Source: a virus (lineage: Duplodnaviria; Caudoviricetes). From it: DNA of 49,188 nt. Positions 14,334 to 48,928 of this stretch are shown piece by piece. The stretch covers positions 1-49,188 of the IMG/VR virus record IMGVR_UViG_3300048852_000108, one strand, 5' to 3'. The translations under genes and the position numbers were made by a program. The stretch's first letter is position 1, and every line of letters begins with the position of its first letter. The notes beneath the pieces were generated by a model that was given only the letters and a program-made list of their open reading frames with translations, did not search any database and was not told where the DNA came from.

Positions 14334-14569
14334 CGATGTTCGCCGATGTGGCCGCAGCGGCTGAGCGGTATTTTCCCGATGGCTCATGCCCCCCGGAGGT
14401 CGAGGCCGCGGCGAAGGTGAGCTTCGAGCTCGATCCCGGCCGCCCGGCGGTCGCGTGGGAGGAGCTTGCGGAAGAGGATCGATCCTTCCATCGCCGTGTT
14501 GCGGTATGCATCACCGCGACGTGGTACGGTCAGCTATTGGTCGCGCGCGCCGGGAAGGTTTCGAACTGA
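14330..14569 (+). CDS. Hypothetical protein
   Basis: GGAGG RBS, coupled at both ends. Confidence 0.55.
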   Translation: MTMFADVAAAAERYFPDGSCPPEVEAAAKVSFELDPGRPAVAWEELAEEDRSFHRRVAVCITATWYGQLLVARAGKVSN

Positions 14570-15018
14570 TGACCGGCCCGTTGAAGAACGCGCGGCACGA
14601 GCGGTTTGCTCAGGAGTTGGCGAAGGGCTCGACGGCAGATGCGGCTTATGTCGCCGCGGGCTATCGCCCCGATCGAAAGAATGCTGCCCGGCTGACGACA
14701 AATGACGCCGTTCGGGCTCGGATCACCGAGCTTAAATCCCGCGCCGCCGCCCGCACGGAGATCACCGTCGCAAGTGTCACCCGCCGCCTGCTGCGCATCG
14801 CCGCAAAGGGCGAGCGGTTGCGTGAGGCCTCTGGATTACAGGTCGCCCGCGCCGCGGTGATGGACGCGGCCAAACTCAACGGGTTAGCGCCGGAGCGGCA
14901 CGAGCACACCGGCAAAAACGGTGGCCCGATCGAATATCGCGACCTCGGCGAAGATGAGATCGACGCCCGCCTCAACGCTCTCAAGGATCAGCATGGACAC
15001 CACCGGCTGGCCCATTGA
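14569..15018 (+). CDS. terS: Terminase small subunit
   Basis: LKNARHERFAQELAKG..A..AY..AGY...NAARL and EHTGKNGGPI motifs. Confidence 0.88.
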   Translation: MTGPLKNARHERFAQELAKGSTADAAYVAAGYRPDRKNAARLTTNDAVRARITELKSRAAARTEITVASVTRRLLRIAAKGERLREASGLQVARAAVMDAAKLNGLAPERHEHTGKNGGPIEYRDLGEDEIDARLNALKDQHGHHRLAH

Positions 15019-16516
15019 AGCGAAGCGAGAGGCGTTGGCGCTGCTTGAGGCCAAGGCTCGTCTGGCCGAAGCCCGCCAGCGCGAAGCCGAGCGCCGCCGC
15101 CTCGCCGAAAACCTCGAACTCACACGCCAGCGCTGCCGTAGCCTGACCGGCTTCGTCCGCGAGGCATGGTCGGTGCTTGAGCCCGCGAATCCCTATGTCC
15201 ACGGCTGGCACGTCGAGGCGATCTGCGAGCACCTGGAGGCGATCACCGCCGGGCAAATCAACCGGTTGCTGATCAACGTTCCGCCAGGCACGATGAAATC
15301 GCTCCTGTCGGGCGTGTTCTGGCCCGCCTGGGAGTGGGGACCGATGGGCCGACCGTCGACGCGCATAATCGGCTCCAGCTATTCGGAGGACTACGCCAAG
15401 CGCGACAACCGCCGCATGCGCGATCTCGTCACCTCTGACTGGTTCCAGTCGCTTTGGCCGACCGAGCTGGTCCGCGCCGGCGAAATGGCGTTCAGCAACA
15501 CCGCAACAGGGTTCCGCCAGGGCATCCCGTTCTCACGCCTCACCGGTGGCCGCGGCGACCGCGTCATCATCGACGACCCGCATAGCGTCGACGGCGCCGA
15601 GTCCGAGGCGGAGCGTAGCGCGACTGTTCGCACCTTCCGGGAATCGGTGCCAACTCGCCTCAACGACCCGGCCCGCTCGGCGATCGTCGTGATCATGCAG
15701 CGGCTGCACGAGCAGGACGTCTCGGGCACGATCCTTTCGCTCAAGCTCGGCTACGAGCACTTGATGCTGCCGATGGAATTCGAGCCGGAGCGCCGCTGCG
15801 TCACCTCAATCGGGTTCGAGGATCCGCGTACCTATGACGGCGAGCTGCTGTTCCCGGAGCGCTTCCCTCGCGAGGTGGTCGAGCGGGACAAGGTGCCCAT
15901 GGGCGCCTATGCCGTCGCGGGGCAGTTCCAGCAGCGCCCGGCGCCGCGATCGGGCGGCATGTTCCAGCGAAGCGACTTCGAGATCGTCGACGCCATCCCC
16001 GCGGGCCGCACGCGCCGCGTCCGTGCCTGGGACTTCGCTGCGACCGAGGTGAAGCCGGGTCGCCGACCCGATTGGACCGTCGGGCTGCGCATGGTGCTGG
16101 TCGGGGACGTCTTCTATGTCGAAGATGTTGTCCGGGGGCAGTGGAAGCCGTCCGAGGTCGAGACGCGGCTGGTCAACACTGCGAGCCAGGACGGGTCTGC
16201 CGTGCCGGTGCGCATCCCGGAAGACCCCGGCGCCGCGGGCAAGTCGGACGCCGCGACCAAGATCAAGCTGCTCAAGGGCTATTCGGTGAAGGCGGTACGG
16301 CCGACCGGCGAAAAGTCGGTCCGCGCGCGTCCGGCGTCGGCTCAGGCGGAGGCGGGCAATATCAAGCTGCTGCGCGGCGCATGGAACGACGCCTTCCTCG
16401 ACGAGGTCTGCACCTTCCCGGCGGGCACGAACGACGACCAGGTCGACGCGTTCGCCGATGCGCTCAACGAGCTCGCGCTGGGCGGGTCGGGGTACAACAT
16501 CGACGGGCTGATCTAA
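14993..16516 (+). CDS. terL: Terminase large subunit
   Basis: INVPPGTMKS, TGGRGD.VIIDDP, IMQRLH and HDD-like NDDQVDA nuclease motifs. Confidence 0.95.
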   Translation: MDTTGWPIEAKREALALLEAKARLAEARQREAERRRLAENLELTRQRCRSLTGFVREAWSVLEPANPYVHGWHVEAICEHLEAITAGQINRLLINVPPGTMKSLLSGVFWPAWEWGPMGRPSTRIIGSSYSEDYAKRDNRRMRDLVTSDWFQSLWPTELVRAGEMAFSNTATGFRQGIPFSRLTGGRGDRVIIDDPHSVDGAESEAERSATVRTFRESVPTRLNDPARSAIVVIMQRLHEQDVSGTILSLKLGYEHLMLPMEFEPERRCVTSIGFEDPRTYDGELLFPERFPREVVERDKVPMGAYAVAGQFQQRPAPRSGGMFQRSDFEIVDAIPAGRTRRVRAWDFAATEVKPGRRPDWTVGLRMVLVGDVFYVEDVVRGQWKPSEVETRLVNTASQDGSAVPVRIPEDPGAAGKSDAATKIKLLKGYSVKAVRPTGEKSVRARPASAQAEAGNIKLLRGAWNDAFLDEVCTFPAGTNDDQVDAFADALNELALGGSGYNIDGLI

Positions 16517-16783: not shown

Positions 16784-17170
16784 TTAGCGCGAAATCGCCC
16801 AATTGAACTGTAGCGACCTCCTCGGACCCCGGATTGCTTTGCCCGCCGCATCTAGTGCGGGTGCATATCGCCCCCGACTAGTGATCAGGCTACACGTCAC
16901 GGCGTCCAAAGAAGGCGACCCGGAGGAGCTTGTTACCTGGCAGTTTTCGATGCGGCCTTGCTCATCTACATCGTAGGCAACGCGGACCGAACCTTGTTGG
17001 CCGGCCGCGAGTGCATCGGCAGGGTAGTCGTCAACGGTGACCCATGTGCCGGGATTGCTCAACGCTCTGGCCGGAGTAGCAACTGAGGCGCTGCTAACTT
17101 CGGGCTCGATCGCGGTGGGCTTCGCCTGTAGGTCCTGCGCTGCCCACACCAATAGCATCGCCTCTATCAT
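16784..17170 (-). CDS. TonB C-terminal domain protein (moron)
   Basis: DDYP.DAL..GQQG.V.V.YDVD..GR..NC.V..SSG..SLD..TC motif; GGGGAG RBS. Confidence 0.85.
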   Translation of the reverse strand: MIEAMLLVWAAQDLQAKPTAIEPEVSSASVATPARALSNPGTWVTVDDYPADALAAGQQGSVRVAYDVDEQGRIENCQVTSSSGSPSLDAVTCSLITSRGRYAPALDAAGKAIRGPRRSLQFNWAISR

Positions 17171-17186
17171 TAGATCTCCCCTCTTC

Positions 17187-17226
17187 CTGACGGCGGTAAC
17201 CCCGCCCCTCCCTGCGCCATAGCCAT
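17187..17226 (+). promoter_or_regulatory. Late promoter motif copy 1 (portal)
   Basis: CTGACGGCGGTAAC; TAGCCA at +33; ATG at +45. Confidence 0.75.
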
Positions 17227-17231
17227 GCCCC

Positions 17232-19151
17232 ATGGCGTTCCTCACCGACAGCTTGCGGGCAGCCATCGCGGCATGCAACCCCTTCGCCCGTCGGGACCAT
17301 GCCCCGATGACGGTGCTCGGGGCGTTCCAGCACCAGCTCGCGTTCGCCGCCTATGCCTCATCCGGCATGCTCCGGAAGGTCATCGCGATTCCCGCCGACG
17401 ATCGGGTCCGGGAGTGGCGGGACTGGCAGGCCGACAAGGAAGCGATCGCCCTGATCGAGGCAGAGGAGCGACGGCTCCAGCTGCAGGCCAAGACCAAGCA
17501 GGCGGAGATCCTGCGCGGCATTGGCGGGGGCGCCATGATCCTGATCACGGCGGGCAGCCATTCCGAGCCGCTGACCCCGGACCAGATCAAGGCGGGCGGG
17601 CTCGTCGCGATCAACGTGGTGTCGCGCTGGCAAATCCAAGGCAAGGATTGGGTCACCGACCTTGCCGACCCGGCCTATGGCACGCCGCGCATGTTCTCGA
17701 TCAGCTCGAGCACGTCCGGCGAGCAGCTGATCCACCCCAGCCGCGTCGTAGCGTTTCGAGGCGAGCCGATCCCGATGGGCACCGGCGTCTCTATGGAGGA
17801 GGCGTATTGGGGCGACAGCCGGTTGCTGCGCGTCTTCACCGAGGTCGAGCGCAGCGATCAGACGCAGGCGTGGTTCGCGGCGCTGGTCCGAAAGGCGAAG
17901 TTGCTGCGCTTCGGCATCCCCAAGCTGAGCGACTTTACCGCTAGCGCCGAGGGTACGGCCAAGTTGATGAGCCGGGTTGCTCTAATCGCCGAGGGAGAGA
18001 ACTCACTGAACGCCTCGGTCTATGACATGGGCGATGGCGAAGGGGGTGCGAACCCTGGCGAGAAGATCGACGACTACCAAATCACCTGGGCGGGCATCCC
18101 GGCGGTGATGGACGCATTCGACCAGCGCGTCGCCGCGGTTGCGGATATCCCCTTCACCCGCCTGATGGGCCGATCGCCCGCGGGCATGAACGCTACCGGC
18201 GACCACGACACCGACAATTGGAACAAGATGGTCGCTTCGGGCCAGAAGCTCGAAACCCGGCCCTGCCTGGAGCAGATCGACCCGATCCTGTTGCGCAGCG
18301 CGGGTGTCGCCGCACCGGATGACGTAACCTGGCGCTTTGCCCCGCTCGATACCCCCACCGAGCAGGAGGAGGCCACCACCTTCAAGACCTCCATGGAAGC
18401 GATCGAAAAGCTGCAGAACACCGGCACGATCCCCGACGAGGCGTTTGCGAAGGGGGTGCAGAACTGGCTCGAGGAGCGGGAATATCTGCCCGGGCTTGGT
18501 GCCGCCTTGGCCGAAATCCCGGAGAACGAAAGGTTCGGGCTCGCCCCGGACGACGACGGCGACGATCCGTCGGTCTTGCAGGCGAAAGGAGGTGATCCGG
18601 ACGATCTGCCGGAGGGCGGAGCAGTGCCCCGTTCCGCCCGCCGTGCTGCCAATGACGCCGCGACCTGGCTCGCTGATGCGACGCCTCGCCCCCTCTACGT
18701 CCAGCGCAAGCTCCTCAATGCCGCGGACCTGATCGCATGGGCGAAGGCGAACGGGTTCGACACCACCCTGCCCGCGCCCGACATGCACGTCACCGTGCTC
18801 TACTCGCGCGCGCCGGTCGACCCGATGAAGATGGGCCGCGACTGGCGCGAGGACGAACAGGGCCGGATCACCGTTCGCCCCGGCGGCCCGCGCGTGATCG
18901 AGCGACTGGGCGAGAACGCGGTCGTGCTGCGGTTCGCTTCGCCTGACCTCGAATGGCGGCACAAGGACCTGGTCGAGGCCGGCGGGTCGCACGACTGGCC
19001 CGAATATGCCCCGCATGTGACGCTGAGCTACGCGGTTCCGGAGGGCGTCGATTTGGACGCCCTGAAACCGTTCAACGGCGAGCTGCGGTTCGGGCCGGAG
19101 ATTTTCGAGGCGCTGGACCTCGATTGGAAGCAGAAGGTGCGCGAGAAATGA
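17232..19151 (+). CDS. DUF1073-type portal protein fused to a C-terminal Acb1-like 2H phosphoesterase
   Basis: Portal motifs IHPSR, ADIP.TRL.GRSP.GMNATG and F.PL; C-terminal HVTVLYS and PHVTLSY (two HxT motifs). Confidence 0.9.
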   Translation: MAFLTDSLRAAIAACNPFARRDHAPMTVLGAFQHQLAFAAYASSGMLRKVIAIPADDRVREWRDWQADKEAIALIEAEERRLQLQAKTKQAEILRGIGGGAMILITAGSHSEPLTPDQIKAGGLVAINVVSRWQIQGKDWVTDLADPAYGTPRMFSISSSTSGEQLIHPSRVVAFRGEPIPMGTGVSMEEAYWGDSRLLRVFTEVERSDQTQAWFAALVRKAKLLRFGIPKLSDFTASAEGTAKLMSRVALIAEGENSLNASVYDMGDGEGGANPGEKIDDYQITWAGIPAVMDAFDQRVAAVADIPFTRLMGRSPAGMNATGDHDTDNWNKMVASGQKLETRPCLEQIDPILLRSAGVAAPDDVTWRFAPLDTPTEQEEATTFKTSMEAIEKLQNTGTIPDEAFAKGVQNWLEEREYLPGLGAALAEIPENERFGLAPDDDGDDPSVLQAKGGDPDDLPEGGAVPRSARRAANDAATWLADATPRPLYVQRKLLNAADLIAWAKANGFDTTLPAPDMHVTVLYSRAPVDPMKMGRDWREDEQGRITVRPGGPRVIERLGENAVVLRFASPDLEWRHKDLVEAGGSHDWPEYAPHVTLSYAVPEGVDLDALKPFNGELRFGPEIFEALDLDWKQKVREK

Positions 19152-19426
19152 CCGGACTGCGTTACCTCGACCAAGTGTTGGTTGGCGATCACCTGCGGGT
19201 GGGCGAGCTATGCGTCGCGCAAGACATAATCACCCACCGGCGTTGGTGGCAGTTCTGGCGCCCCCGGTGGTGGTCAGAGCAGCGGATGTGCCTTGTGTTG
19301 GCGGATCGCTCGCTGCTCGACGTTACACCACTTCTACGTGCCGAGCATCAACCAAGCGGGAAGGTAATATGTCGCGCGCTTGCTGAAATCGACCGCAATT
19401 CGAAGTCGAAGGTGGGCGAGGAATGA
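19148..19426 (+). CDS. Hypothetical protein (RRWWQFW motif)
   Basis: ATGA-coupled to the portal stop. Confidence 0.55.
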   Translation: MTGLRYLDQVLVGDHLRVGELCVAQDIITHRRWWQFWRPRWWSEQRMCLVLADRSLLDVTPLLRAEHQPSGKVICRALAEIDRNSKSKVGEE

Positions 19427-19512
19427 CGTGGCTCCTCTATTCACTCGCAGCCTATGGCGCCATCAACCTGATTGAGCTGGTGGCGAGGGCAGCGCTGCGC
19501 TGGCGCGCGTGA
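19423..19512 (+). CDS. 29-aa hydrophobic peptide
   Basis: MTWLLYSLAAYGAINLIELVARAALRWRA; ATGA and TGATG overlaps on both sides. Confidence 0.5.
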   Translation: MTWLLYSLAAYGAINLIELVARAALRWRA

Positions 19513-20420
19513 TGCGCTTCTCGCTAGCCGTCCTCACCCGCCGCACCCGCAACCCGCGGCGCGCGCAGATCGTGCTCCGCGACATCGTGCCGCCGGCCAC
19601 GCTTGCGACCGACCTGTACCGCTCGGTCTATCTGCCCGTCGTGCAGGTCTGGGAGCGCGCGATTCCACCGTTCGTCGCAGAATACGAGCGAACGCTGGCC
19701 AAAATGACAGCCGATGCCTATGCGCGCCGCGAGACGAGTTCGGTCACTACGGACAGCTCCGGTGTTCGGATTCGTCTCACCGACTCCCCCGATGATCTCC
19801 AAGCCCGCCTGGACGCCGCCAGCTCGGAGGTCGAACGGCTGTTCATCCTGCTCGATGCGGCCCTGCGCGACTGGGGCGTGCGTGTAGAGCGCTGGCAGCG
19901 TGAGAAGTGGCGAGGCGCCGTCCTTAGCGCGACGGGCGTCGACGTCGCCACGCTGATCGGCCCCGAGGACATGCGCGACACGGTCAGCACCTATCTGCGC
20001 TGGAACGCCGCCCTGGTGCGCGACGTCTCGGCGCAGGCCCGGCAGCGGATCAGCAATGCGGTGTTCGCTGGGCTCCAGAACCGCACACCGGTGCGCGAGG
20101 TGGCGAAGCAGATCAGCGAGGCCACGGGCATGGCGCGCGATCGGTCGAAGCGAGTCGCGGCGGATCAGCTCAACAAGATCACTTCCGCGCTGGCGGATGA
20201 GCGGCGGCGCGAGGCTGGGATCGACGTCTGGAAATGGCGGCACAGCGGCAAGCGGCATCCGCGCGAGACGCACCTGGCGCGCAACGGGAAGCTCTATGCG
20301 GATACGCCGGCGGGCGCGGATGCGGAGATCAGCGCGCCGCCTGAGGATCGGCCCGGGCAGCTACCGTATTGCGGGTGTCGGGCCCAGGCTGTGTTGGTGT
20401 TACCCCAAGGCAGTGATTGA
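19512..20420 (+). CDS. Minor head morphogenesis protein (Mu F / SPP1 gp7-like)
   Basis: A.DQ.NK, GI..WKWRHS...R..H..RNG and PGQLPYCGC.A motifs. Confidence 0.88.
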   Translation: MRFSLAVLTRRTRNPRRAQIVLRDIVPPATLATDLYRSVYLPVVQVWERAIPPFVAEYERTLAKMTADAYARRETSSVTTDSSGVRIRLTDSPDDLQARLDAASSEVERLFILLDAALRDWGVRVERWQREKWRGAVLSATGVDVATLIGPEDMRDTVSTYLRWNAALVRDVSAQARQRISNAVFAGLQNRTPVREVAKQISEATGMARDRSKRVAADQLNKITSALADERRREAGIDVWKWRHSGKRHPRETHLARNGKLYADTPAGADAEISAPPEDRPGQLPYCGCRAQAVLVLPQGSD

Positions 20421-20817: not shown

Positions 20818-21102
20818 ATGACCCCGCTCGAACGCGCCGCCCGCGTCCTCTGCGATCTCGCCGGCCGCGACCCTGATGAAGTCTGCGTCGGCGAGGGAAA
20901 CGCTGTCGGGCAGACGTGGATGGGCTGGGAAGCATTCGTGGAGAACGCCCGCGACGTCATCGCTGCGATCCGGGAGCCGAGCGAGGAGATGCGACTGGCC
21001 GGCATCGGGGCGATGAAGAGAAGTGCCAATCCTGGTCTGGACCATCACGACATGCACGTTGGCTTTACCGCTATGATCGACGCGCTGCTCGAGGAACAGT
21101 GA
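20818..21102 (+). CDS. Hypothetical phage protein
   Basis: ERAARVLC...AIREPSEEM...AMIDA.L pattern common in alphaproteobacterial phages. Confidence 0.7.
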   Translation: MTPLERAARVLCDLAGRDPDEVCVGEGNAVGQTWMGWEAFVENARDVIAAIREPSEEMRLAGIGAMKRSANPGLDHHDMHVGFTAMIDALLEEQ

Positions 21103-21104
21103 GA

Positions 21105-21356
21105 ATGGATATTCGCCAACATTTGGACGCTCTTCTTGCTCATGCCGCTGAATTGGGTCGCGTTCCGCAGCGCTTCGTAGTGCGTGAGGAAGACTGGGGG
21201 GAGTTGGCCAGCCGATACCACTTGGACCCCGATCCCAAGACCGAGGGGGTGATGCAATATTGCGGTGTTCTAGTAGAGTTTGGGCAGGTCAGTCAGCGGA
21301 TGATTGCCGCTCTTTACGACACTAATGGTGAGGCGCTGCTGGAAGAGTGGCAATGA
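21105..21356 (+). CDS. Hypothetical protein
   Basis: GAGG RBS; coupled to the next gene. Confidence 0.55.
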   Translation: MDIRQHLDALLAHAAELGRVPQRFVVREEDWGELASRYHLDPDPKTEGVMQYCGVLVEFGQVSQRMIAALYDTNGEALLEEWQ

Positions 21357-21556
21357 TCCCCTGGCGCCCAATCTCCGAGCTGCCTGACACGCTCAAAGAG
21401 GGCTTCCGAGTGGTGCTGCTTTGGGACCGTCAGCATGGTGTCAACGTTGGCCAATTCGAGCCGGAGTCTATGACCGGAGCGGGATGGAAGACGGTGATCG
21501 ATAGTCATCCGCTCGATGATGTAACGCACTTCGCCGAGATCAACGCGCCTCAATAA
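21353..21556 (+). CDS. DUF551-like small protein
   Basis: WRPISELP...VTHF.E pattern. Confidence 0.6.
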   Translation: MIPWRPISELPDTLKEGFRVVLLWDRQHGVNVGQFEPESMTGAGWKTVIDSHPLDDVTHFAEINAPQ

Positions 21557-21685: not shown

Positions 21686-22846
21686 ATGTTGCTGCACGAC
21701 GCACTCACGCTCGACGCGCCCCGGCGAACTCGCGATGGCTATCTCGCCGTTCGGGCCAAGGCCGCGCGCACGGGAGTCTACCAGTACGGCGGCCGTGAGA
21801 TCGATCCGGACAATAAGCACGGGCTGCGTGACACTGCCGTAGTCAACGTCCTTCGCGACGAACAGACGGTGTTCGACGAGGCTTCGGTCGGTTCGTTCAT
21901 CGGCAAGCCGATTACCGACGATCACCCCACCGTTCCCGTCACCGCGGCGAACTGGAAGGACCACGCGCGCGGCACCATCATGGGCGCGAAGTGGGAGCCG
22001 GGCGGTTACCTCGCGTTCGACCTCCTCCTGACCGACGCGGACGCGATCGCGAAGGTAGACGGCGGCAAGCGCGAGCTCTCCAACGGATACGACGCCGGGC
22101 TTGAGTTCGGCGAGTTCAAGGCGGCCGACGGCACGATCTGCCAGGCGCGCCAAACCAGCATCAGGGGCAATCACATCGCCCTCGTCGATCGCGGCCGTGC
22201 AGGCCCCGAGTGCCGGATCGCGGACGCGGAGGTTCAGCCCTTCGCGGTGTGCGACGCCAACCCCGAGGCGGTGGCTCGCCTCTCTTACCAGGAGAAGACC
22301 GTGAAGAAGATCACGCTCGACGGCCTGCAGGTCGATCTTTCGGACGCGGATGCCGTCGCAGCCGCGATCGAGAAGCTGCAGGGACAGGTCGCCGACAAGG
22401 CAACCGCACTGACCGCCGCGGAGACGCAGGTCGCCATGCTCACAACCGACAAGGCCACGCTCGAGGCGAAGGTGACGACGCTGGAGACGCAGCTCGCCGA
22501 CGCCAAGCTCACGCCGCAGCAGCTGCGCGATGCCGCCAAGGCGTTCCAGGTCGTTGCCGATAAGGCGAAGGCGCTCGGTGTCGCCGTCTCGGACGAGATG
22601 GACGAGGCCGCGATCATGAAGGCGGCCGTTACGGCCAAGGTCGGCGATGCCGCAGATGGCTGGAACGACGCGCAGATCGCCGCTTCGTTCGCGACGCTCA
22701 CCAAGGACGCGAAGGTGCAGGACGGCAACGTCGTTCAGCCCATCGGCCAGCCCTCAACCATCGCTGATGGCGCTGCTGCCGCCAACGAGGCTCGCAATCA
22801 GATGATTGCGGACATGGTGAACCCGAACGCGGCGAAGGCCGCCTGA
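21686..22846 (+). CDS. DUF2213 prohead protease/scaffold
   Basis: DGYL..ARTGVY.Y, GKPIT.DHP, RELS.GY and NHIALVDRGRAG motifs; coiled-coil C-terminus. Confidence 0.9.
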   Translation: MLLHDALTLDAPRRTRDGYLAVRAKAARTGVYQYGGREIDPDNKHGLRDTAVVNVLRDEQTVFDEASVGSFIGKPITDDHPTVPVTAANWKDHARGTIMGAKWEPGGYLAFDLLLTDADAIAKVDGGKRELSNGYDAGLEFGEFKAADGTICQARQTSIRGNHIALVDRGRAGPECRIADAEVQPFAVCDANPEAVARLSYQEKTVKKITLDGLQVDLSDADAVAAAIEKLQGQVADKATALTAAETQVAMLTTDKATLEAKVTTLETQLADAKLTPQQLRDAAKAFQVVADKAKALGVAVSDEMDEAAIMKAAVTAKVGDAADGWNDAQIAASFATLTKDAKVQDGNVVQPIGQPSTIADGAAAANEARNQMIADMVNPNAAKAA

Positions 22847-22857
22847 GGAGGACGGAA

Positions 22858-23361
22858 ATGGCAACTTTTCAGACGACCTACGAAGCCAATCCTCCGATCG
22901 GGCTTAAGGGCCAGATCGCCAACGAGGAAAAGCACAACCAGATCAGCCGGACGGTGTCGAACGCCGAAGGCATCAAGTTCGGCGCTCCAGGCTTCCGCGT
23001 CGCCGGCGCGGGGAATGATCATGTGGTTGCCGCAACCGGCGCGGTCGAGGACTTCCTCGGTCTGGCCGTGCTCACTGGTGCCGTGCCTCCCGTGGCTCCA
23101 GGCTCCACTTTGGTCGACGGATACCCGCAGCACTTCACCGGCGCGTTCATGACCGACGGCCAGATGTACGTCGAGGCAGGCGGCGCCGTCGCTCCGGGCG
23201 ATGCGGTGTATTACGCCGCCGCGACCGACCAGTACTTTAACGCCGCCGCTGCGGGCCGTGTCGGTCCGCTGCCCCGCGTCGTGTTCGACACCACCGCAAC
23301 TGCCGCAGGCCAGATGGTCGAGCTCTCGCTCAACCACCGCGTCGTGCCGGCCGCAGCATAA
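22858..23361 (+). CDS. Head decoration/cement protein
   Basis: Between protease and capsid genes; I.FG...G.MYV...AV.PGD.VY pattern. Confidence 0.8.
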   Translation: MATFQTTYEANPPIGLKGQIANEEKHNQISRTVSNAEGIKFGAPGFRVAGAGNDHVVAATGAVEDFLGLAVLTGAVPPVAPGSTLVDGYPQHFTGAFMTDGQMYVEAGGAVAPGDAVYYAAATDQYFNAAAAGRVGPLPRVVFDTTATAAGQMVELSLNHRVVPAAA

Positions 23362-24711: not shown

Positions 24712-24751
24712 CTGACGGCGGTAACTCGTCGCTCCCCTGCCCGCCATGGTG
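24712..24751 (+). promoter_or_regulatory. Late promoter motif copy 3
   Basis: CTGACGGCGGTAAC directly after the terminator; CATGGT at +33. Confidence 0.7.
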
Positions 24752-24787
24752 CTGCCCGATCCCTTAGCGTTCGGGCGAGGAGACCCC

Positions 24788-25441
24788 ATGGCCGACAACA
24801 TCACCGCACCCGCCACCGGCGCTGTTCTAGCGACGGACGAGATCGGCAACACCCACTACCCTCGCAGCAAAGTGGGGTTTGGCGCCGATGGCGTTTACAA
24901 CGATGTGAGCGCGGACGCACCGCTCCCTGTCGCGATCGTTGCGGGCGGCAGCAGCGGCGACGCAACTGCCGCGCTCCAGACTGCCGGCAACGACCTGCTG
25001 GCCAGCATCCTCGCCGCGACCGACACGCTGGAAACGCTGATCGGTCAGGTCAATGCCACGCTGGCGGACGCGGAATACTATCCGCCCACCCAGCCGGTGA
25101 GCGCCGCCGCCCTTCCCCTCCCCGCTGGGGCCGCCACCAGCGCCAAGCAGGACAACGTGATTGCCGCGATCGCGACGATCGGCACCCGGGCATACGGCGC
25201 CGGGATCGCGCGCGTGGCCATCGGCGCATCGGACAACCCTACGTCCGGTCTGGCGGCGACCGAGGTCATGCTGCACGCGAGCGCTCGCTGCTTCGTGCGC
25301 GTCGGCGCCGCCGCGACAATCAACGACATTCCATTGGAAGCGGGCGAGAAGTTCACACTGCGTCTGAACTCTGGGCAGCAGATCCACGTCATTGGTGACA
25401 CTGACTCGACCGGCTTCCTCAACGTCGTTCCGGTGGCCTGA
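24788..25441 (+). CDS. Putative virion (head spike base-like) protein
   Basis: GAGGAG RBS; beta-rich C-terminal domain; lies in the head module. Confidence 0.6.
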   Translation: MADNITAPATGAVLATDEIGNTHYPRSKVGFGADGVYNDVSADAPLPVAIVAGGSSGDATAALQTAGNDLLASILAATDTLETLIGQVNATLADAEYYPPTQPVSAAALPLPAGAATSAKQDNVIAAIATIGTRAYGAGIARVAIGASDNPTSGLAATEVMLHASARCFVRVGAAATINDIPLEAGEKFTLRLNSGQQIHVIGDTDSTGFLNVVPVA

Positions 25442-25444
25442 TTC

Positions 25445-27370
25445 ATGCTTTTGCGGCCGGGCAGCATTGGGAAAATCGGGAGCGCGAGCACTCGGTCGGA
25501 GTCGCCGGCGCCTTCCCCTGCCCCGACCGACCGCGTCGTCACCTACGGCACATCAACACCGCTGCTGGTCGCGTCCGCAGGCACCACGCGTCAGAAGTGC
25601 ACTCGCAAGGTCGTCGTCATCGGCGCGGACACGCCGTACATCTACGGCACCTTCGATAACTGCCGCACCGAGGCTTCAGGGGACCAGTTCAACCTGGGAA
25701 ATCTGACGATCCTCCAGCACGGGTATCTCTCGGTCGACGGGGCGGTCTCGAAGGTCGCGACGTTCGATAACGGAGCATCCACGACGAAAACGCTCGGCAC
25801 GACCGACGCGACGGGCATTCGCATCCCACACGACAAGATCACAGCAGCCGAGTTCTACGGCCCACCGGTCCAGAACTTCACTCGCGGCACCAGGTTGATG
25901 ATGCAGACGGACGTTGTCGCCGAGGAAGGGGCCATGTTCCTCTTCAACGCGCATTGCCAGCCAGCAGGGGATTCGTCTGCGGAGTTCGCCGTAACTGGAT
26001 CCCCCCTTCCACTCAGCACCGGATCTGCAGGCACGGTCAACGAAGGCTACACGGCGAGTTGCGTGTACGGCTTCCATGCTGATCGCGCGCATATCAACTG
26101 CGGTGACAGCATCGCGGCCGACAGCGGCGACAGCACATCAAATTCCATCCGCGGCGGCTATTCCCGCTACGCCACGAACATCTACGGCGACAATCCGGTG
26201 CCGATGCTCAACATCGCGCGGCACGGCTGCACGGCAGCGCAGATCGCGCCGAATGCACAAGGCATCCTGCCTGCGGACGGCGTCATGCGGAACGCCTATC
26301 TCGTGCCCGGCACTTTCACCGACATCTCGGAGAACTTCGCGGCGAACGATCTGGGCTCGTCTCCTTCGGTAGGGGCGGCGGAAGTCGTGTTCGCCACCAA
26401 GCAGCGGCTCTGGACGCATTTCCGCGAGCGGGGAGCGGAGTGGATCACCGTCATCCAGCCGACGCCGCGCACGGTCAACGCCAGCAACAACACGCCGATC
26501 AACGCGGGTTGGGCGAAGGGCGGCGAGTCCGACCATCTCCGCGCGCTTCAAGAGGGCGCGCTCGATAATGGGCTGATTGAGGCGATCATCCGCTCGGACA
26601 CGCTGCGAGGGTCGAGCAACCCGGAGGATGACGGCTACTTCATCTACTCGGACCTGCGATACTCTCTCGATGGCACGCATCTGAACCCGCGCGGCTATTT
26701 GATCGTTCACGCAGAGCACCGCGCTGTGATCCTGCACGGCGATGTATCAGGCGACATTCCCGACTTCCCAGAGGGGCAAGTAATTCTCGACACGTTCAGC
26801 GGTCCCGCCGGCGCGAGCGTCAAGGGCCGACTTACGGACAGCGGCTCGACATGGCAGGGGCTCACTGCTGGCGCCAACATGATAATGACCGACCAGGGAC
26901 GTGCCTATGTGTCGGCGAACGGGTACATGTTCGTGCTCGATCCAAGGATGAGCCGGCAGCAGTATATCGAGGTGGACGTGGACACGGTGACGGCCACTGC
27001 GGTGGCGCAGACACTCCTCCTGCGCGCTGACACGACGGGCAGCGCATTCACCGGCCTTACCGCCTCGTTCAATCCCTCCACCCTCGCAGCCTCACTGTTC
27101 AGCGTCAGCAACGGCACCAGCACGCAAATCGGCAGCAGCGTGACTGTCCCGGACCCAGGCCCCAACGTCACGGTTCGCGCAGAACTGGTGGACTGCCTCC
27201 TAAGCCTCTTCGTCGGCCCGAAGGGCGGGCCTCTTACGCTCGCTTTGACAGGCATGGTCAGCAATATCGAGGGAGCTATTGGCGTGCGTCAGGCGGCAAA
27301 CTCTACCGCGACCACCGGAAGGCAGCTCGCCGAAGTTCGCGCGGGCAATATGCCTGCGACAATGCCTTGA
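25445..27370 (+). CDS. SGNH/GDSL esterase-domain protein with C-terminal beta-sandwich (putative head fibre)
   Basis: CGDSI, NIARHG, AANDLG and DGTHLN blocks. Confidence 0.75.
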   Translation: MLLRPGSIGKIGSASTRSESPAPSPAPTDRVVTYGTSTPLLVASAGTTRQKCTRKVVVIGADTPYIYGTFDNCRTEASGDQFNLGNLTILQHGYLSVDGAVSKVATFDNGASTTKTLGTTDATGIRIPHDKITAAEFYGPPVQNFTRGTRLMMQTDVVAEEGAMFLFNAHCQPAGDSSAEFAVTGSPLPLSTGSAGTVNEGYTASCVYGFHADRAHINCGDSIAADSGDSTSNSIRGGYSRYATNIYGDNPVPMLNIARHGCTAAQIAPNAQGILPADGVMRNAYLVPGTFTDISENFAANDLGSSPSVGAAEVVFATKQRLWTHFRERGAEWITVIQPTPRTVNASNNTPINAGWAKGGESDHLRALQEGALDNGLIEAIIRSDTLRGSSNPEDDGYFIYSDLRYSLDGTHLNPRGYLIVHAEHRAVILHGDVSGDIPDFPEGQVILDTFSGPAGASVKGRLTDSGSTWQGLTAGANMIMTDQGRAYVSANGYMFVLDPRMSRQQYIEVDVDTVTATAVAQTLLLRADTTGSAFTGLTASFNPSTLAASLFSVSNGTSTQIGSSVTVPDPGPNVTVRAELVDCLLSLFVGPKGGPLTLALTGMVSNIEGAIGVRQAANSTATTGRQLAEVRAGNMPATMP

Positions 27371-46839: not shown

Positions 46840-48084
46840 TCAAGCGGGGTCGAATAGCGGCCCGGCGTCCAACTGCCGCACCGCCCTCCCCGTCGCCCGC
46901 TCCGAGATGCTGTCTCCGCACCGGACCCTGATGTCCGCGACATAGTCGTCCTCGCGCTCGATTAGCAGGGCGCTTAGCCCCTCCACGACTGCGGCGGTGC
47001 CGGTCGTCCCGGTGCCGGCAAAGCAGTCCAGCACCACCCCCTCGGGCGGCGTCACCAGCCGGCAGAGCCAGCGCATCAGTGCGATCGGCTTTACCGTCGG
47101 GTGCGAGGTCAGCGTGTCGTGGCCGCACTTCGGCTTGCCCAGTTGGTGCGCGCCGCATGAGGTGCAGCGATAGACGCGCTCGCCGTCGGTGGCCTTAGCG
47201 CTGTAGAAGAAGCGCGCTGCGGTACCGCTGTCGCCTTGAAAGGTGCTCCCCTCCTCGTCGACATCGCCCTTGAACGCGCCATAGGTGTTGCGGAACTTGT
47301 CGCCATTGCGGCGATGGACCGGAGCAGCCGCACCGCGCTCGCCAAACTCGGCGAAGGCGTCGAGCACCTCAGCGCTGCCATCGTGGACGACGTTCGCGGG
47401 CCAGCGACCAGGCTTAGCCTCACCATGATAGACCTCGTTCTCCTTCCAGTTGTCGGTGGCGTTGACGGTTGCCCCGGGCGCGAGCCGCCTCACAGTGTAA
47501 GTCCCGCCCCGCGCATCATCGGCGTGAATTCGGCACCGATCGATATTCAGCGCGCCGGTCCCGAACATCGCCATATTCGCCGCCACGCTGCCGATGATCG
47601 GTTTCCGCGCCAGCACGATCGGCTCCTTCGCCGGCTTCAAGTCGGTGCCCCAGCCATCGAACTCGCCATCGAGGTTGTGCGATTTCGGGAAGCCGGTGCC
47701 GTACATCCAGTCGATCATGTTGCGGATCTCGAATCCTGCATCTTCGATCGCGCACGCCATTCGGTGATAGGTCCGGCAGTGCGAGAAGGCGATCAGGTGA
47801 CCGCCGGGGTGCAGGAGATCGAACACCAGCCGCCATGTCTCGGGCCGGAAAGCGATGTCTCCCCCATCCCACTTCTGCCCCATGAAACCGCTGCTCGATC
47901 GAGCGTAGACCCCGGTGGCGCCGGATTGGATCGGTGCCGAGTTCGGGGAGCCCAGCCGGTCAACGATGCTGGTCAGGTGATAGGGAGCGTCGGTCACCGC
48001 GGAGTGGACACGAACGCCCTCAGCGTGTAGGCGCTTCATCACTTCGAGGCAGTCGCCGTGCTCGAGGCGGATTGCCGCCTTCAC
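46840..48084 (-). CDS. DNA methyltransferase (N6/N4, beta class)
   Basis: GDCL, TDAPY (DPPY variant), HPTVKP and VLDCFAGTGTT motifs. Confidence 0.9.
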   Translation of the reverse strand: MKAAIRLEHGDCLEVMKRLHAEGVRVHSAVTDAPYHLTSIVDRLGSPNSAPIQSGATGVYARSSSGFMGQKWDGGDIAFRPETWRLVFDLLHPGGHLIAFSHCRTYHRMACAIEDAGFEIRNMIDWMYGTGFPKSHNLDGEFDGWGTDLKPAKEPIVLARKPIIGSVAANMAMFGTGALNIDRCRIHADDARGGTYTVRRLAPGATVNATDNWKENEVYHGEAKPGRWPANVVHDGSAEVLDAFAEFGERGAAAPVHRRNGDKFRNTYGAFKGDVDEEGSTFQGDSGTAARFFYSAKATDGERVYRCTSCGAHQLGKPKCGHDTLTSHPTVKPIALMRWLCRLVTPPEGVVLDCFAGTGTTGTAAVVEGLSALLIEREDDYVADIRVRCGDSISERATGRAVRQLDAGPLFDPA

Positions 48085-48269
48085 TGGCTCGCCTCCACGA
48101 TAACCACCACGCCATTCCGCCCGCGCCGATCCAGCGCAGCGAGCGCATGGTTGAGCGCCTCGCCGGCATCGGGAGCCGAGTTGCGGGTGGCGGTCGGGCT
48201 GAGCGACCACTGCCAGGTTTTGGAGAGCTGCCAGAGATGGACCCTCGGGCGGGTGTCGGCGCGGGTCAT
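48081..48269 (-). CDS. Small hypothetical protein
   Basis: Coupled on both sides. Confidence 0.5.
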   Translation of the reverse strand: MTRADTRPRVHLWQLSKTWQWSLSPTATRNSAPDAGEALNHALAALDRRGRNGVVVIVEASQ

Positions 48270-48928
48270 GCTGCACCGGCCTTCCGCTTCTCGTGAACGG
48301 CATGCTCCAGCTTCGCGATCGCCATGACGACGGGCTTAACCTCAGGCTCGGCCTGATCGTACGCGAGCCGCTTCTTGTGACGCCCGCCGTTCAGTCGCGC
48401 GAGCACCCCCCGCGGGATCGCCTCCCAATTGCTCGGGTCAGTGTTGAGCCGGTTGCCGTCCAAGCACTTGAGCGCAAAGCCCTCGGGGATCGGACCATTG
48501 ACCGCCTCCCACTCGATGCGCTGCACCAGTTGCCAGCGAGACTGCATCGGAAGGCCATCGTGGATCTTGCGTTCTCGATAGCCGTCCTCGGTGATGCGCT
48601 CGGTGCCGATCGGCTGGTAGTTCAACGCGGCCTTGCCGGTGCGGCCGCCCTTCTTGAACTGGGTCTTGCGGGCATTCGGATGCCGCCCACCGGTGCCCGG
48701 CGGGCACGGCTTGCCCTTGTTCGACGGCTCATGGCCCTTGGCGAAGCAACCGGTGCGCCCAGTGCGCCATCCGTTGCGCTTGCGGAAGGCATGGAGATTG
48801 CCGGCTGACACATCCGAGCGGCCGAATTGGGCGCAGAAGGCAGCGTGGTACTCGCCGATAACCAAGGCGGCATTGGCTTCTAGCCATGCTCGCTCTTCGG
48901 CGCTGTAGCTGATCCAGTGACCCTTCAT
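48266..48928 (-). CDS. HNH_3-type endonuclease-like protein
   Basis: F.KG..P.NKG, PIGTER...DGY and WE..NGPIP.G...DGN..N...N motifs. Confidence 0.8.
   Translation of the reverse strand: MKGHWISYSAEERAWLEANAALVIGEYHAAFCAQFGRSDVSAGNLHAFRKRNGWRTGRTGCFAKGHEPSNKGKPCPPGTGGRHPNARKTQFKKGGRTGKAALNYQPIGTERITEDGYRERKIHDGLPMQSRWQLVQRIEWEAVNGPIPEGFALKCLDGNRLNTDPSNWEAIPRGVLARLNGGRHKKRLAYDQAEPEVKPVVMAIAKLEHAVHEKRKAGAA

What the first reader, a model, noticed from the sequence alone, without database searches (positions are those of the whole stretch)
17232..19151. Portal-Acb1 fusion with candidate protease-release sites: a virion-delivered anti-CBASS enzyme?
Seen: the portal domain is followed by an acidic/Gly linker (PDDDGDDPS...DPDDLPEGG), then AANDAATWLADA, then a roughly 155-aa domain with HVT (18786) and HVT (19014). 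Established: two HxT motifs define 2H phosphoesterases such as T4 Acb1, which degrade cyclic-nucleotide immune signals, and DUF1073-Acb1 fusions are known at annotation level. Seen: the same x-D-A/S motif recurs at the capsid N-terminus (FADA), throughout the DUF2213 protein (LHDA, IADA, LADA, LRDA, WNDA) and in the minor head protein (TADA, TTDS, LTDS). Inference: the prohead protease clips the Acb1 domain from the dodecameric portal, so it is packaged and ejected with the DNA, or it acts where assembly triggers CBASS.
Basis: partly seen in the sequence, partly recalled or inferred. Interest (0 to 1): 0.88.

Follow-up and report, generated by a model that had tools for sequence, protein, structure and literature searches.

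The report
Phage portal with cut-off Acb1 cargo
This prophage's head-portal protein ends in an Acb1-family enzyme domain (the kind phages use to destroy bacterial alarm nucleotides); the fusion is already known, but the junction sequence changes with the type of phage head it is fused to, so the phage's own head protease likely cuts the enzyme free inside the particle, possibly for injection.

Summary
Confirmed: a 639-aa DUF1073 portal fused to an intact Acb1-family 2H domain (Pfam 138.7 bits; model fits FBB1 Acb1, rmsd 1.9 A) in a complete provirus with sphingomonad relatives. The fusion and the packaged, injected anti-nucleotide role were predicted in print (Iyer 2017, 2022). Cyanophage Pam3's solved portal has the same fusion, and this scan noted it 21 times before on other DNA, once with the protease idea. 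Asp precedes the domain in 93 of 101 DUF1073 fusions, versus D-[ASG] in 0 of 23 fusions to other head modules. Those carry K/R-[AS] or F-[ASN], and HK97-type heads carry the same K motif in their capsids. The T1 capsid model starts right after such an Asp. Pam3 virion MS coverage (72%) likely includes the domain, which is absent from the portal model. Hydrolysis, cleavage and injection are untested. New side finding: a conserved extended Shine-Dalgarno plus hairpin inside the linker mRNA (31 of 35 related loci).

The parts
17232..19151 (+). Portal-Acb1 fusion gene, 639 aa (69.9 kDa)
   Evidence: full-length match to Pam3 portal 8HDS, E 7e-97
17247..17252 (+). D6-S7, predicted N-terminal protease site of the portal
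   Evidence: Asp in 46 of 46 portals, D-[ASG] in 42
17346..18410 (+). Portal core (PF06381, residues 39-393; structural match extends to about 455)
   Evidence: 8hds_A Z 26.8, 413 aligned, rmsd 8.1
18516..18674 (+). Hypervariable acidic/Gly linker, residues about 429-481, low model confidence
   Evidence: pLDDT block means 41-69 for residues 431-480; variability
18584..18598 (+). Extended Shine-Dalgarno-like sequence (complement of the 16S rRNA 3' tail) inside the linker coding sequence, with no conserved start codon after it
   Evidence: 31 of 35 related loci, two reading frames (26 and 5), no in-frame ATG/GTG/TTG 3-13 nt downstream in 31 of 31
18608..18646 (+). Conserved GC-rich RNA hairpin about 20 nt after the extended SD
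   Evidence: mean folding z -2.77 in 22 loci (21 below -1) vs 0.02 for control windows
18654..18659 (+). D475-A476 (AND|A), second predicted protease site
   Evidence: kept at variable spacing in close relatives; Asp 28 of 46
18675..18680 (+). D482-A483, main predicted protease site at the 2H domain boundary
   Evidence: Asp 108 of 108 anchored close homologs; 93 of 101 DUF1073 fusions vs D-[ASG] 0 of 23 in other modules
18678..19148 (+). Acb1-family 2H phosphoesterase domain, residues 483-639 (157 aa, 17.8 kDa), with a free C-terminal lid
   Evidence: PF23474; 7t26 E 3.4e-10; 7t27 Z 16.6, rmsd 1.9 A over 134 residues; size
18786..18794 (+). First HxT (H519, T521 = T4 H44, T46)
19014..19022 (+). 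Second HxT (H595, T597 = T4 H113, T115)
19509..20420 (+). MuF / minor head protein with conserved D92 (LTD|S)
   Evidence: PF04233; Asp 35 of 36
21686..22846 (+). DUF2213 prohead protease-scaffold fusion; candidate His (TDDHP, residues 77-81) and Ser (ELSNGY, residues 130-135); conserved D5, D180, D272, D328
   Evidence: PF09979; phrog_530 head maturation protease E 3e-74; 31% identical to T1 gp50; both motifs in 28 of 36 loci with a hit; positions
22858..23361 (+). Cement protein (Pam3 gp6 type)
   Evidence: PF22758
23375..24322 (+). Major capsid protein with conserved D7-A8 at the start of the N-arm
   Evidence: PF09950; Asp 35 of 36; 8hdt E 1e-46
14566..16516 (+). Terminase small and large subunit genes upstream of the portal
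   Evidence: PF03592, PF17289, phrog_38

Best explanation
The gene encodes a head portal with an Acb1-family 2H phosphoesterase on a flexible C-terminal tether; the phage's DUF2213 prohead protease likely cuts after Asp482 (and Asp475), leaving up to 12 free 18-kDa enzymes in the head that would be injected with the DNA and would hydrolyse CBASS-type cyclic di- and trinucleotides. Shown: the fusion, intact catalytic residues and fold, and the dependence of the junction motif on the head module. Inferred: Asp-specific cleavage (about 0.8), packaging (about 0.85, from Pam3), nucleotide hydrolysis (about 0.8) and ejection (about 0.55). Newly made fusion protein would also be present late in the producing cell, when head assembly triggers CBASS.
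For: Enzyme: both HxT/S motifs in 148 of 150 representatives. T4 Y12, F107, E141 and W147 map to Y489, W589, E626 and W632 (T4 residues from Hobbs 2022). The model matches 7t27 at Z 16.6, rmsd 1.9 A over 134 residues. Cleavage: with a query starting after the motif, Asp sits three residues before the domain in 93 of 101 PF06381 fusions; D-[ASG] lies within 8 residues in 90/101 vs 7/101 in a control window. In HK97-portal, Mu-portal and S78/ChaB fusions it is 0 of 23 at that position (2/23 within 8; Fisher p 9e-14). Those carry [KR]-[ASG] (4/4 HK97, 8/10 S78, 3/3 weak Mu-portal) or F-[ASNG] (6/6 Mu-portal). Where more cargo follows, the residue 7 after the lid Trp is Asp in 15/23 D-modules and Lys in 12/14 K-modules. 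In the HK97-type loci shown (L042-L045), K-[SA] stands at the portal N-terminus, the junction and the capsid delta-domain end, beside a Peptidase_S78 gene. Module class changes 16 times on the 2H tree. The T1 capsid (DUF2213 protease) is modelled from residue 27, directly after D26; Pa193 from 66, after D64-S65. The Pam3 capsid model holds 300 of 310 residues, with D9 upstream. Mu's portal loses its C-terminus, attributed to protease I. Packaging: Pam3 virion MS covers 72% of the 621-aa portal; tryptic peptides of residues 1-466 could give at most 63.6%. The Pam3 portal model holds 442 residues, aligned up to 451, so the 2H domain is not modelled. Co-cargoes on the same portals include ADP-ribosyltransferases, PBECR3 and zeta-toxin domains.
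Against: No activity, cleavage or ejection data exist in what I read. The Pam3 MS paper does not name its protease; with chymotrypsin, residues 1-466 alone could reach 75%, and coverage cannot tell cut from uncut. Absence from a 12-fold averaged map also fits a flexible uncut tether. First modelled residues are not sequenced N-termini; the Pa193 portal model starts at 94, 20 residues after its AMDS. CBASS activation and T4 Acb1 activity are late events, so 12 molecules injected at entry are poorly timed for it. The T4 W74 position is Leu here (Phe in 57, Leu in 87 of 150). Two of seven tested structural groups of viral 2H enzymes cut nothing in the panel. Representatives are related, so the p values overstate independence, and the tree rests on 145 residues. 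Mu itself repeats ALSA, not FAA, and no protease gene was seen in the Mu-type loci shown, so the F motif is not tied to a protease. Aminobacter phage Erebus has an insertion and no D-A directly at the boundary.
Confidence: 0.5

Rival explanations
1. The enzyme works mainly in the producing cell, late in infection. Fusion to the portal times its synthesis with the prohead protease, a known CBASS trigger. Cutting only clears the portal crown, and copies left in the head are passengers.
For: Prohead proteases activate CBASS late by cleaving CD-NTases (Hobbs and Kranzusch 2026). Prohead protease mutations in T1 phages escape type I CBASS (review passage), and T1 gp50 is a DUF2213 homolog of this phage's protease. 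The domain is also fused directly to DUF2213 (2) and S78/ChaB proteins (10) among 150 representatives. The lid is free, so the uncut fusion could be active. 2 of 5 lysogen genomes of related prophages carry a SMODS nucleotidyltransferase above cut-off.
Against: Does not need protease sites on both sides of the domain. ART, RNase and zeta-toxin co-cargoes fit delivery better.
Confidence: 0.3
2. The domain is cut and delivered, but its substrate is not a CBASS signal. It would be an RNase or RNA-end-processing enzyme, or act on another nucleotide.
For: Iyer 2017 offered an RNase role first. PHROG labels the family 'RNA ligase'. Specificity varies among viral 2H enzymes. W74 is not aromatic here.
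Against: Closest solved relative is FBB1 Acb1 in sequence and fold, with the adenine-reading Glu and lid Trp kept. All 9 further homologs tested by Hobbs 2022 cleaved cGAMP and cAAA.
Confidence: 0.12
3. The D-A motif is not a cleavage site. It is an inherited cap of the 2H domain, and the enzyme stays tethered to the portal for life.
For: D-A dipeptides are common in these Ala/Asp-rich proteins. No direct cleavage data exist.
Against: Stand-alone T4 57B and RcXuper Acb1 lack it. The residue switches D/K/F with the head module on both sides of the same domain. An unfused portal (RHph_N28_2) keeps PIGDA before a short tail.
Confidence: 0.08

Closest known systems
Portal- and MuF-fused 2H domains of phage polyvalent/head proteins (Iyer et al. 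2017, PMC5512222; Iyer et al. 2022, PMC9503650)
   Same: Same architecture. Both papers predict packaging, and the 2022 paper injection against SMODS, cyclic-mononucleotide and CRISPR signals (passages).
   Different: The passages I saw give no cleavage sites for these fusions and no link to prohead-protease specificity.
Cyanophage Pam3 portal gp3 (PDB 8HDS; Yang et al. 2023, PMC9942802)
   Same: 621-aa portal with the same C-terminal domain and a TDA junction, in the same head module of MuF, DUF2213, cement and capsid.
   Different: Pam3 is a myophage with no extended-SD element. [quoted passage not shown]
Acb1 of T4 (gene 57B) and Erwinia phage FBB1 (PDB 7T26/7T27; Hobbs et al. 2022, PMC9117128)
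   Same: 2H fold, HxT/HxT tetrad, Y12, E141, W147 and C-terminal lid.
   Different: Acb1 is a stand-alone 152-aa protein, 29% identical. Here the domain is portal-fused, W74 is Leu, F107 is Trp, and activity is untested.
Mu portal gp29 processing by protease I; T4 Alt
   Same: A head protein trimmed by the maturation protease (Mu); an enzyme packaged and injected with the DNA (Alt).
   Different: Different protease and motif. No enzyme is described for Mu's removed piece in the passages read.
STAB-SD elements and rreB extended SD (PMC3997798; Hahn et al., PMC5711450); Rfam CC2171
   Same: Long 16S-tail complement without a strong start; binds 30S and affects RNA stability (passages).
   Different: Here it lies inside a translated structural gene. 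The Rfam score is 22.4 bits against a gathering score of 75.

Membership tests
Acb1 (PF23474) | Profile score above curated cut-off | tested here: met
   138.7 vs 27 bits
Acb1 (PF23474) | Compact 2H fold | tested here: met
   model vs 7t27 Z 16.6, rmsd 1.9 A, 134 of 140 residues
Acb1 (PF23474) | HxT/HxT catalytic tetrad | tested here: met
   H519/T521/H595/T597
Acb1 (PF23474) | Adenine-reading Glu141 and C-terminal lid with Trp147 | tested here: met
   E626, W632, free C-terminus
Acb1 (PF23474) | Four stacking aromatics Y12, W74, F107, W147 | tested here: inconclusive
   three kept (Y489, W589, W632); W74 maps to L559 in a gapped loop
Acb1 (PF23474) | Hydrolyses cGAMP/cAAA and protects phage from CBASS | not testable with these tools
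   needs biochemistry and plating
DUF1073 / Phage_portal_3 portal | PF06381 score, portal fold, position between terminase and head genes | tested here: met
TIGR01555 (HI1409 family) | NCBIfam cut-off 196.25 bits | tested here: not met
   139.7 bits
Portal-fused 2H effectors of Iyer 2017/2022 | 2H domain fused to a portal in a late-gene context, no RNA ligase partner in the polypeptide | tested here: met
Prohead-protease substrate | Cognate protease gene with conserved candidate catalytic motifs in the module | tested here: met
   phrog_530; His and Ser motifs in 28 of 36 loci; catalytic roles inferred
Prohead-protease substrate | New N-terminus at the site in mature virions | not testable with these tools
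   only coverage figures and model ranges were available
STAB-SD / rreB-type element | Stabilises downstream RNA, marks a processed 5' end, or precedes a small ORF | tested here: inconclusive
   no conserved in-frame start; RNase J-like genes in 5 of 5 lysogen genomes but below cut-off; RNA contigs uninformative

The most novel reading that the evidence does not exclude
Tailed phages use the portal C-terminus as a general loading dock. Anti-defence enzymes are swapped between head modules and each time acquire the recognition site of the resident prohead protease (Asp for DUF2213, Lys/Arg for S78, Phe in some Mu-like heads) on both sides. They are then cut loose in the head and injected, making this the first virion-delivered cyclic-nucleotide nuclease and revealing DUF2213 as an Asp-specific protease. 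In the sphingomonad clade the linker mRNA also carries a ribosome-binding stabiliser that would raise head-gene output over portal output.
Probability: 0.4. Interest if true: 0.78.

Novelty: new member of a known kind. Interest (0 to 1): 0.52.

Why it matters
The fusion itself is catalogued. What would be new is evidence that the cargo is processed, and a way to test it. If true, a temperate phage could carry anti-CBASS/type III CRISPR activity into the next cell without expressing it there. The Asp specificity would define the cleavage rule of the widespread DUF2213 protease, whose T1 homolog is implicated in CBASS sensing. Pam3, a cultured phage with a solved virion and an existing MS data set, already carries the fusion, so re-searching those spectra for semi-specific peptides could settle cleavage. 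The site grammar would also mark boundaries of unknown cargo domains on portals.

Tried and rejected
Raw D-[AS] recurrence as evidence: near chance; rejected in favour of positional tests. TADA69, TTDS82 and LRDA282 as sites: not conserved. An internal start giving free Acb1 without proteolysis: no in-frame ATG/GTG/TTG after the extended SD in 31 of 31 loci; the window's GTG at 18624 behind a second GGAGG is not conserved and lies in the hairpin. A frameshift signal: no common slippery heptamer seen by eye in the alignment; not tested further. Folding the whole 85-nt element gave only z -1.2; the signal is in the hairpin alone. Rfam: only sub-threshold hits. RNA runs: three soil metatranscriptomes with 6-9% of words, short scattered contigs, no information on expression or ends. 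A stand-alone search gave 58 short proteins, many on contigs of 1-2 kb, so it was not used as a count. NCBIfam has no hit for the domain. Pa193 supplements gave Mascot scores, no peptide positions (one file unreadable). Hobbs 2022 supplements held no 'portal' or 'DUF1073'. PMC8004638 was irrelevant. Literature searches for a published cleavage motif or a tested portal-Acb1 fusion found none; the library lacks most subscription papers, and the Doherty 2025 supplement listing 13 multi-domain 2H enzymes was not seen. The host's CBASS status could not be tested because the record is the provirus only.
Full report
Observation. The window is a provirus record of 49,188 bases rated complete, with repressor, recombination and replication genes and a terminase-portal-MuF-DUF2213-cement-capsid-tail block. 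Close relatives lie mostly in Sphingobium, Sphingomonas and Novosphingobium genomes. ORF 17232-19151 encodes 639 aa: PF06381 portal (39-393) and PF23474 Acb1 (487-635, 138.7 bits, cut-off 27). The two HVT motifs are at nt 18786 and 19014. An AlphaFold2 model from 80 sequences shows two confident domains joined by a low-confidence linker. Residues 486-636 superpose on FBB1 Acb1 7t27 (Z 16.6, rmsd 1.9 A, 134 residues).

How common and how known. A search with the C-terminal 200 aa found 626 proteins among 3,171 candidates; all 120 listed carry both Pfam domains, and several are already named 'anti-CBASS protein Acb1 family protein'. Of 1,160 cultured-phage records with a match, 32 cover at least 80% of the fusion, among them Pam3, phiPSA1 and RHEph04. 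[quoted passage not shown] Iyer 2022 proposes packaging and injection against SMODS, cyclic-mononucleotide and CRISPR signals (passages). This scan has 21 earlier findings with 'portal Acb1', one of which also suggests release by the head protease. The core idea is therefore not new.

Is the domain an Acb1? T4 57B aligns at 29%. The residues Hobbs 2022 names (passages) map as Y12=Y489, H44=H519, T46=T521, F107=W589, H113=H595, T115=T597, E141=E626 and W147=W632; W74 falls on L559. Among the best 150 of 2,227 representatives at 50% identity, both HxT/S motifs are intact in 148, Y489 in 149, E626 in 112 and W632 in 100. The family is under selection as an enzyme. Activity is inferred, and Doherty 2025 shows that specificity varies among viral 2H enzymes (passages; supplements not seen). 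I found no support for gcADPR as a substrate.

Is D-A a cleavage site? Counting says little. Against shuffles, the portal has fewer D-[AS] than expected (6 vs 9.0), MuF 6 vs 4.3, DUF2213 14 vs 8.1 (p 0.017) and the capsid 7 vs 3.3 (p 0.03), over 17 proteins. Position says much more. In 108 of 120 close homologs that could be anchored, Asp482 is invariant while the linker is hypervariable. The decisive control is that the same domain is fused to other head proteins. I searched with a query that begins after the motif and classed the 150 hits by Pfam (145; 5). The classes were PF06381 portal 101, Mu-type portal 9, HK97-type portal 4, S78 protease/ChaB 10, DUF2213 2, NUDIX polyvalent 4 and no second family 20. 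Asp stands at -3 in 93 of 101 PF06381 fusions and D-[ASG] in 87; a control window further upstream has it in 7 of 101. In the 23 HK97, Mu and S78 fusions it is 0 at -3 and 2 within 8 residues (p 9e-14). These carry [KR]-[ASG] (4/4, 8/10, 3/3 weak Mu-portal hits) or F-[ASNG] (6/6 strong Mu-portal hits), and [KR]-[ASG] occurs in 0 of 101 PF06381 fusions. Where a further cargo follows and a lid Trp/Phe could be anchored, the residue 7 after it is Asp in 15 of 23 D-type proteins and Lys in 12 of 14 K-type proteins, a group that includes the NUDIX class. In HK97-type loci L042-L045 the K-[SA] motif recurs at the portal N-terminus, the junction and the capsid delta-domain end (AEYKSLN, TQMKALN), next to a Peptidase_S78 gene. 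That HK97 protease cuts after Lys is recalled, not from a call. On a tree of 131 domains the class changes 16 times (shuffled mean 25.5), so the switch happened repeatedly, though the tree is short and the sequences are related. Stand-alone T4 and RcXuper enzymes lack the motif.

The D sites also mark structural boundaries in the module: portal D6 (46/46), capsid D7 (35/36), protease D5 and D180 at the protease-scaffold boundary (41/42 each) and MuF D92 (35/36). In solved virions of DUF2213 phages, the T1 capsid is modelled from residue 27, directly after KQD26 (passages). The Pa193 capsid is modelled from 66, after AMD64-S65. The first 93 portal residues of Pa193 were not seen by LC-MS and 'may be cleaved'. 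The Pam3 capsid model holds 300 of 310 residues with D9 upstream, and the Pam3 portal model 442 residues aligned up to 451, which equals 10-451 if gap-free, starting after TAD9 (inferred). Mu's portal lacks its last 124 residues, attributed to protease I (passages). Against: modelled starts are not sequenced termini. Mu's own repeated motif is ALSA, not FAA. Erebus lacks a D-A directly at the boundary. The DUF2213 gene was checked only in fetched loci (36 of 40) and named phages, not for each of the 101.

Is it in the virion? Pam3 virion MS lists gp3 at 72% coverage with 37 peptides, and gp5 as 'prohead protease' (supplement read whole). Tryptic peptides of residues 1-466 could cover at most 63.6%. 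The whole protein could reach 88.6%, giving an observed/possible ratio of 0.81, like the capsid's 0.82. The protease used is not stated; with chymotrypsin 75% is possible without the domain, which would need 96% coverage. So the domain is probably present, while the portal model omits it and the structure paper does not mention it (passages, two sections and supplement search). This cannot distinguish cut from tethered.

Mechanism. Most likely the portal C-terminus, which faces the head interior (recalled portal topology), carries the enzyme into the prohead. The DUF2213 protease cuts after D482 and D475, and up to 12 copies of a 17.8-kDa enzyme stay in the head and leave with the DNA, as T4 Alt does. 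Sites on both sides and ART, PBECR3 or zeta-toxin co-cargoes favour delivery. Timing favours the rival: prohead proteases trigger CBASS late (passages), T4 Acb1 acts from about 15 min, and T1 protease mutants escape CBASS (review passage). Two of five lysogen genomes of related prophages carry SMODS enzymes. The two roles can coexist. I put the full cut-package-inject-hydrolyse chain at 0.5.

An unexpected RNA element. The linker's recurring GGD or KEVI residues come from one nucleotide motif, GAAAGGAGGTGATCC at 18584-18598, complementary to the 16S 3' tail (tail sequence recalled). It is present in 31 of 35 related loci, in two frames (26 and 5), although GGA and GGT are rare Gly codons in these portals (51 and 123 of 987). 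Background 180-nt windows reach 8 or more matched letters in 4 of 392. No in-frame start follows it (31 of 31). A hairpin of variable sequence follows about 20 nt later (mean z -2.77 in 22 loci vs 0.02). It is absent from Pam3, phiPSA1, RHEph04 and the HK97- and Mu-type fusions. Extended SDs bind 30S and alter stability in alphaproteobacteria, and start-less SDs stabilise RNA in Bacilli (passages). RNase J-like genes occur in 5 of 5 lysogen genomes, below cut-off. My guess (about 0.4) is a stabiliser that protects the downstream protease, cement and capsid message, or else a ribosome pause between the domains. It is untested; no earlier scan note matched these words.

Verdict. A real and ordinary member of a published class. 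The evidence for module-matched protease sites is good and, in seven literature searches, unpublished, and there is an immediate test in Pam3. Interest 0.52.

Noticed in passing
window 18584-18646; L001-L024, L076-L084: Conserved extended Shine-Dalgarno (complement of the 16S 3' tail) plus hairpin inside the portal linker coding sequence, kept in two reading frames, without a start codon; weak likeness to Rfam CC2171.
   Followed up: partly
P0187, P0216, P0218, P0238, P0275, P0287, P0301, P0306, P0312, P0319: DUF1073 portals with several cargoes (2H plus ART, PBECR3, zeta toxin or unknown domains). Many later cargoes start with a short 'YDPNQPRDPxG...GGQW' or 'FNPxHEPAG..GGQF' peptide right after the D or K site, which could be a capsid-targeting or DNA-binding tag.
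   Followed up: no
P0290, P0308 and P0149, P0197, P0224, P0269, P0270, P0273, P0279, P0315: The same Acb1 domain is fused directly to the prohead protease (DUF2213 or Peptidase_S78_2), some with ChaB, putting the anti-CBASS enzyme on the CBASS trigger itself.
   Followed up: partly
window 16784-17278 (- strand): A TonB C-terminal domain gene (PF03544, E 7e-15) inserted in reverse between terminase and portal; a likely moron, perhaps for superinfection exclusion.
   Followed up: no
window 19148-19426 and 20818-21556: Small ORFs without PHROG hits inserted between portal, MuF and protease genes.
   Followed up: no
window 24746-27370: A 231-aa and a 641-aa ORF without Pfam or PHROG hits inside the head-neck block; the longer one looks like an SGNH-esterase plus lectin-like fibre by eye (RHEph04 has a lysophospholipase-like esterase nearby).
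   Followed up: no
L038:16587-18884 (Pa193 gp19): The PB1-like portal has a C-terminal extension (529-765) with no density that looks like an InPase cargo (recalled from Iyer 2017's BcepF1 example; not tested).
   Followed up: no
L096 (phage Mu gp29 and gpI): ALSA repeats many times in Mu's protease-scaffold and once (AALSAE) in the C-terminal part of the portal; likely Mu's own cleavage motif.
   Followed up: partly
window 46840-48303 (- strand): DNA methyltransferase gene (phrog_67).
   Followed up: no
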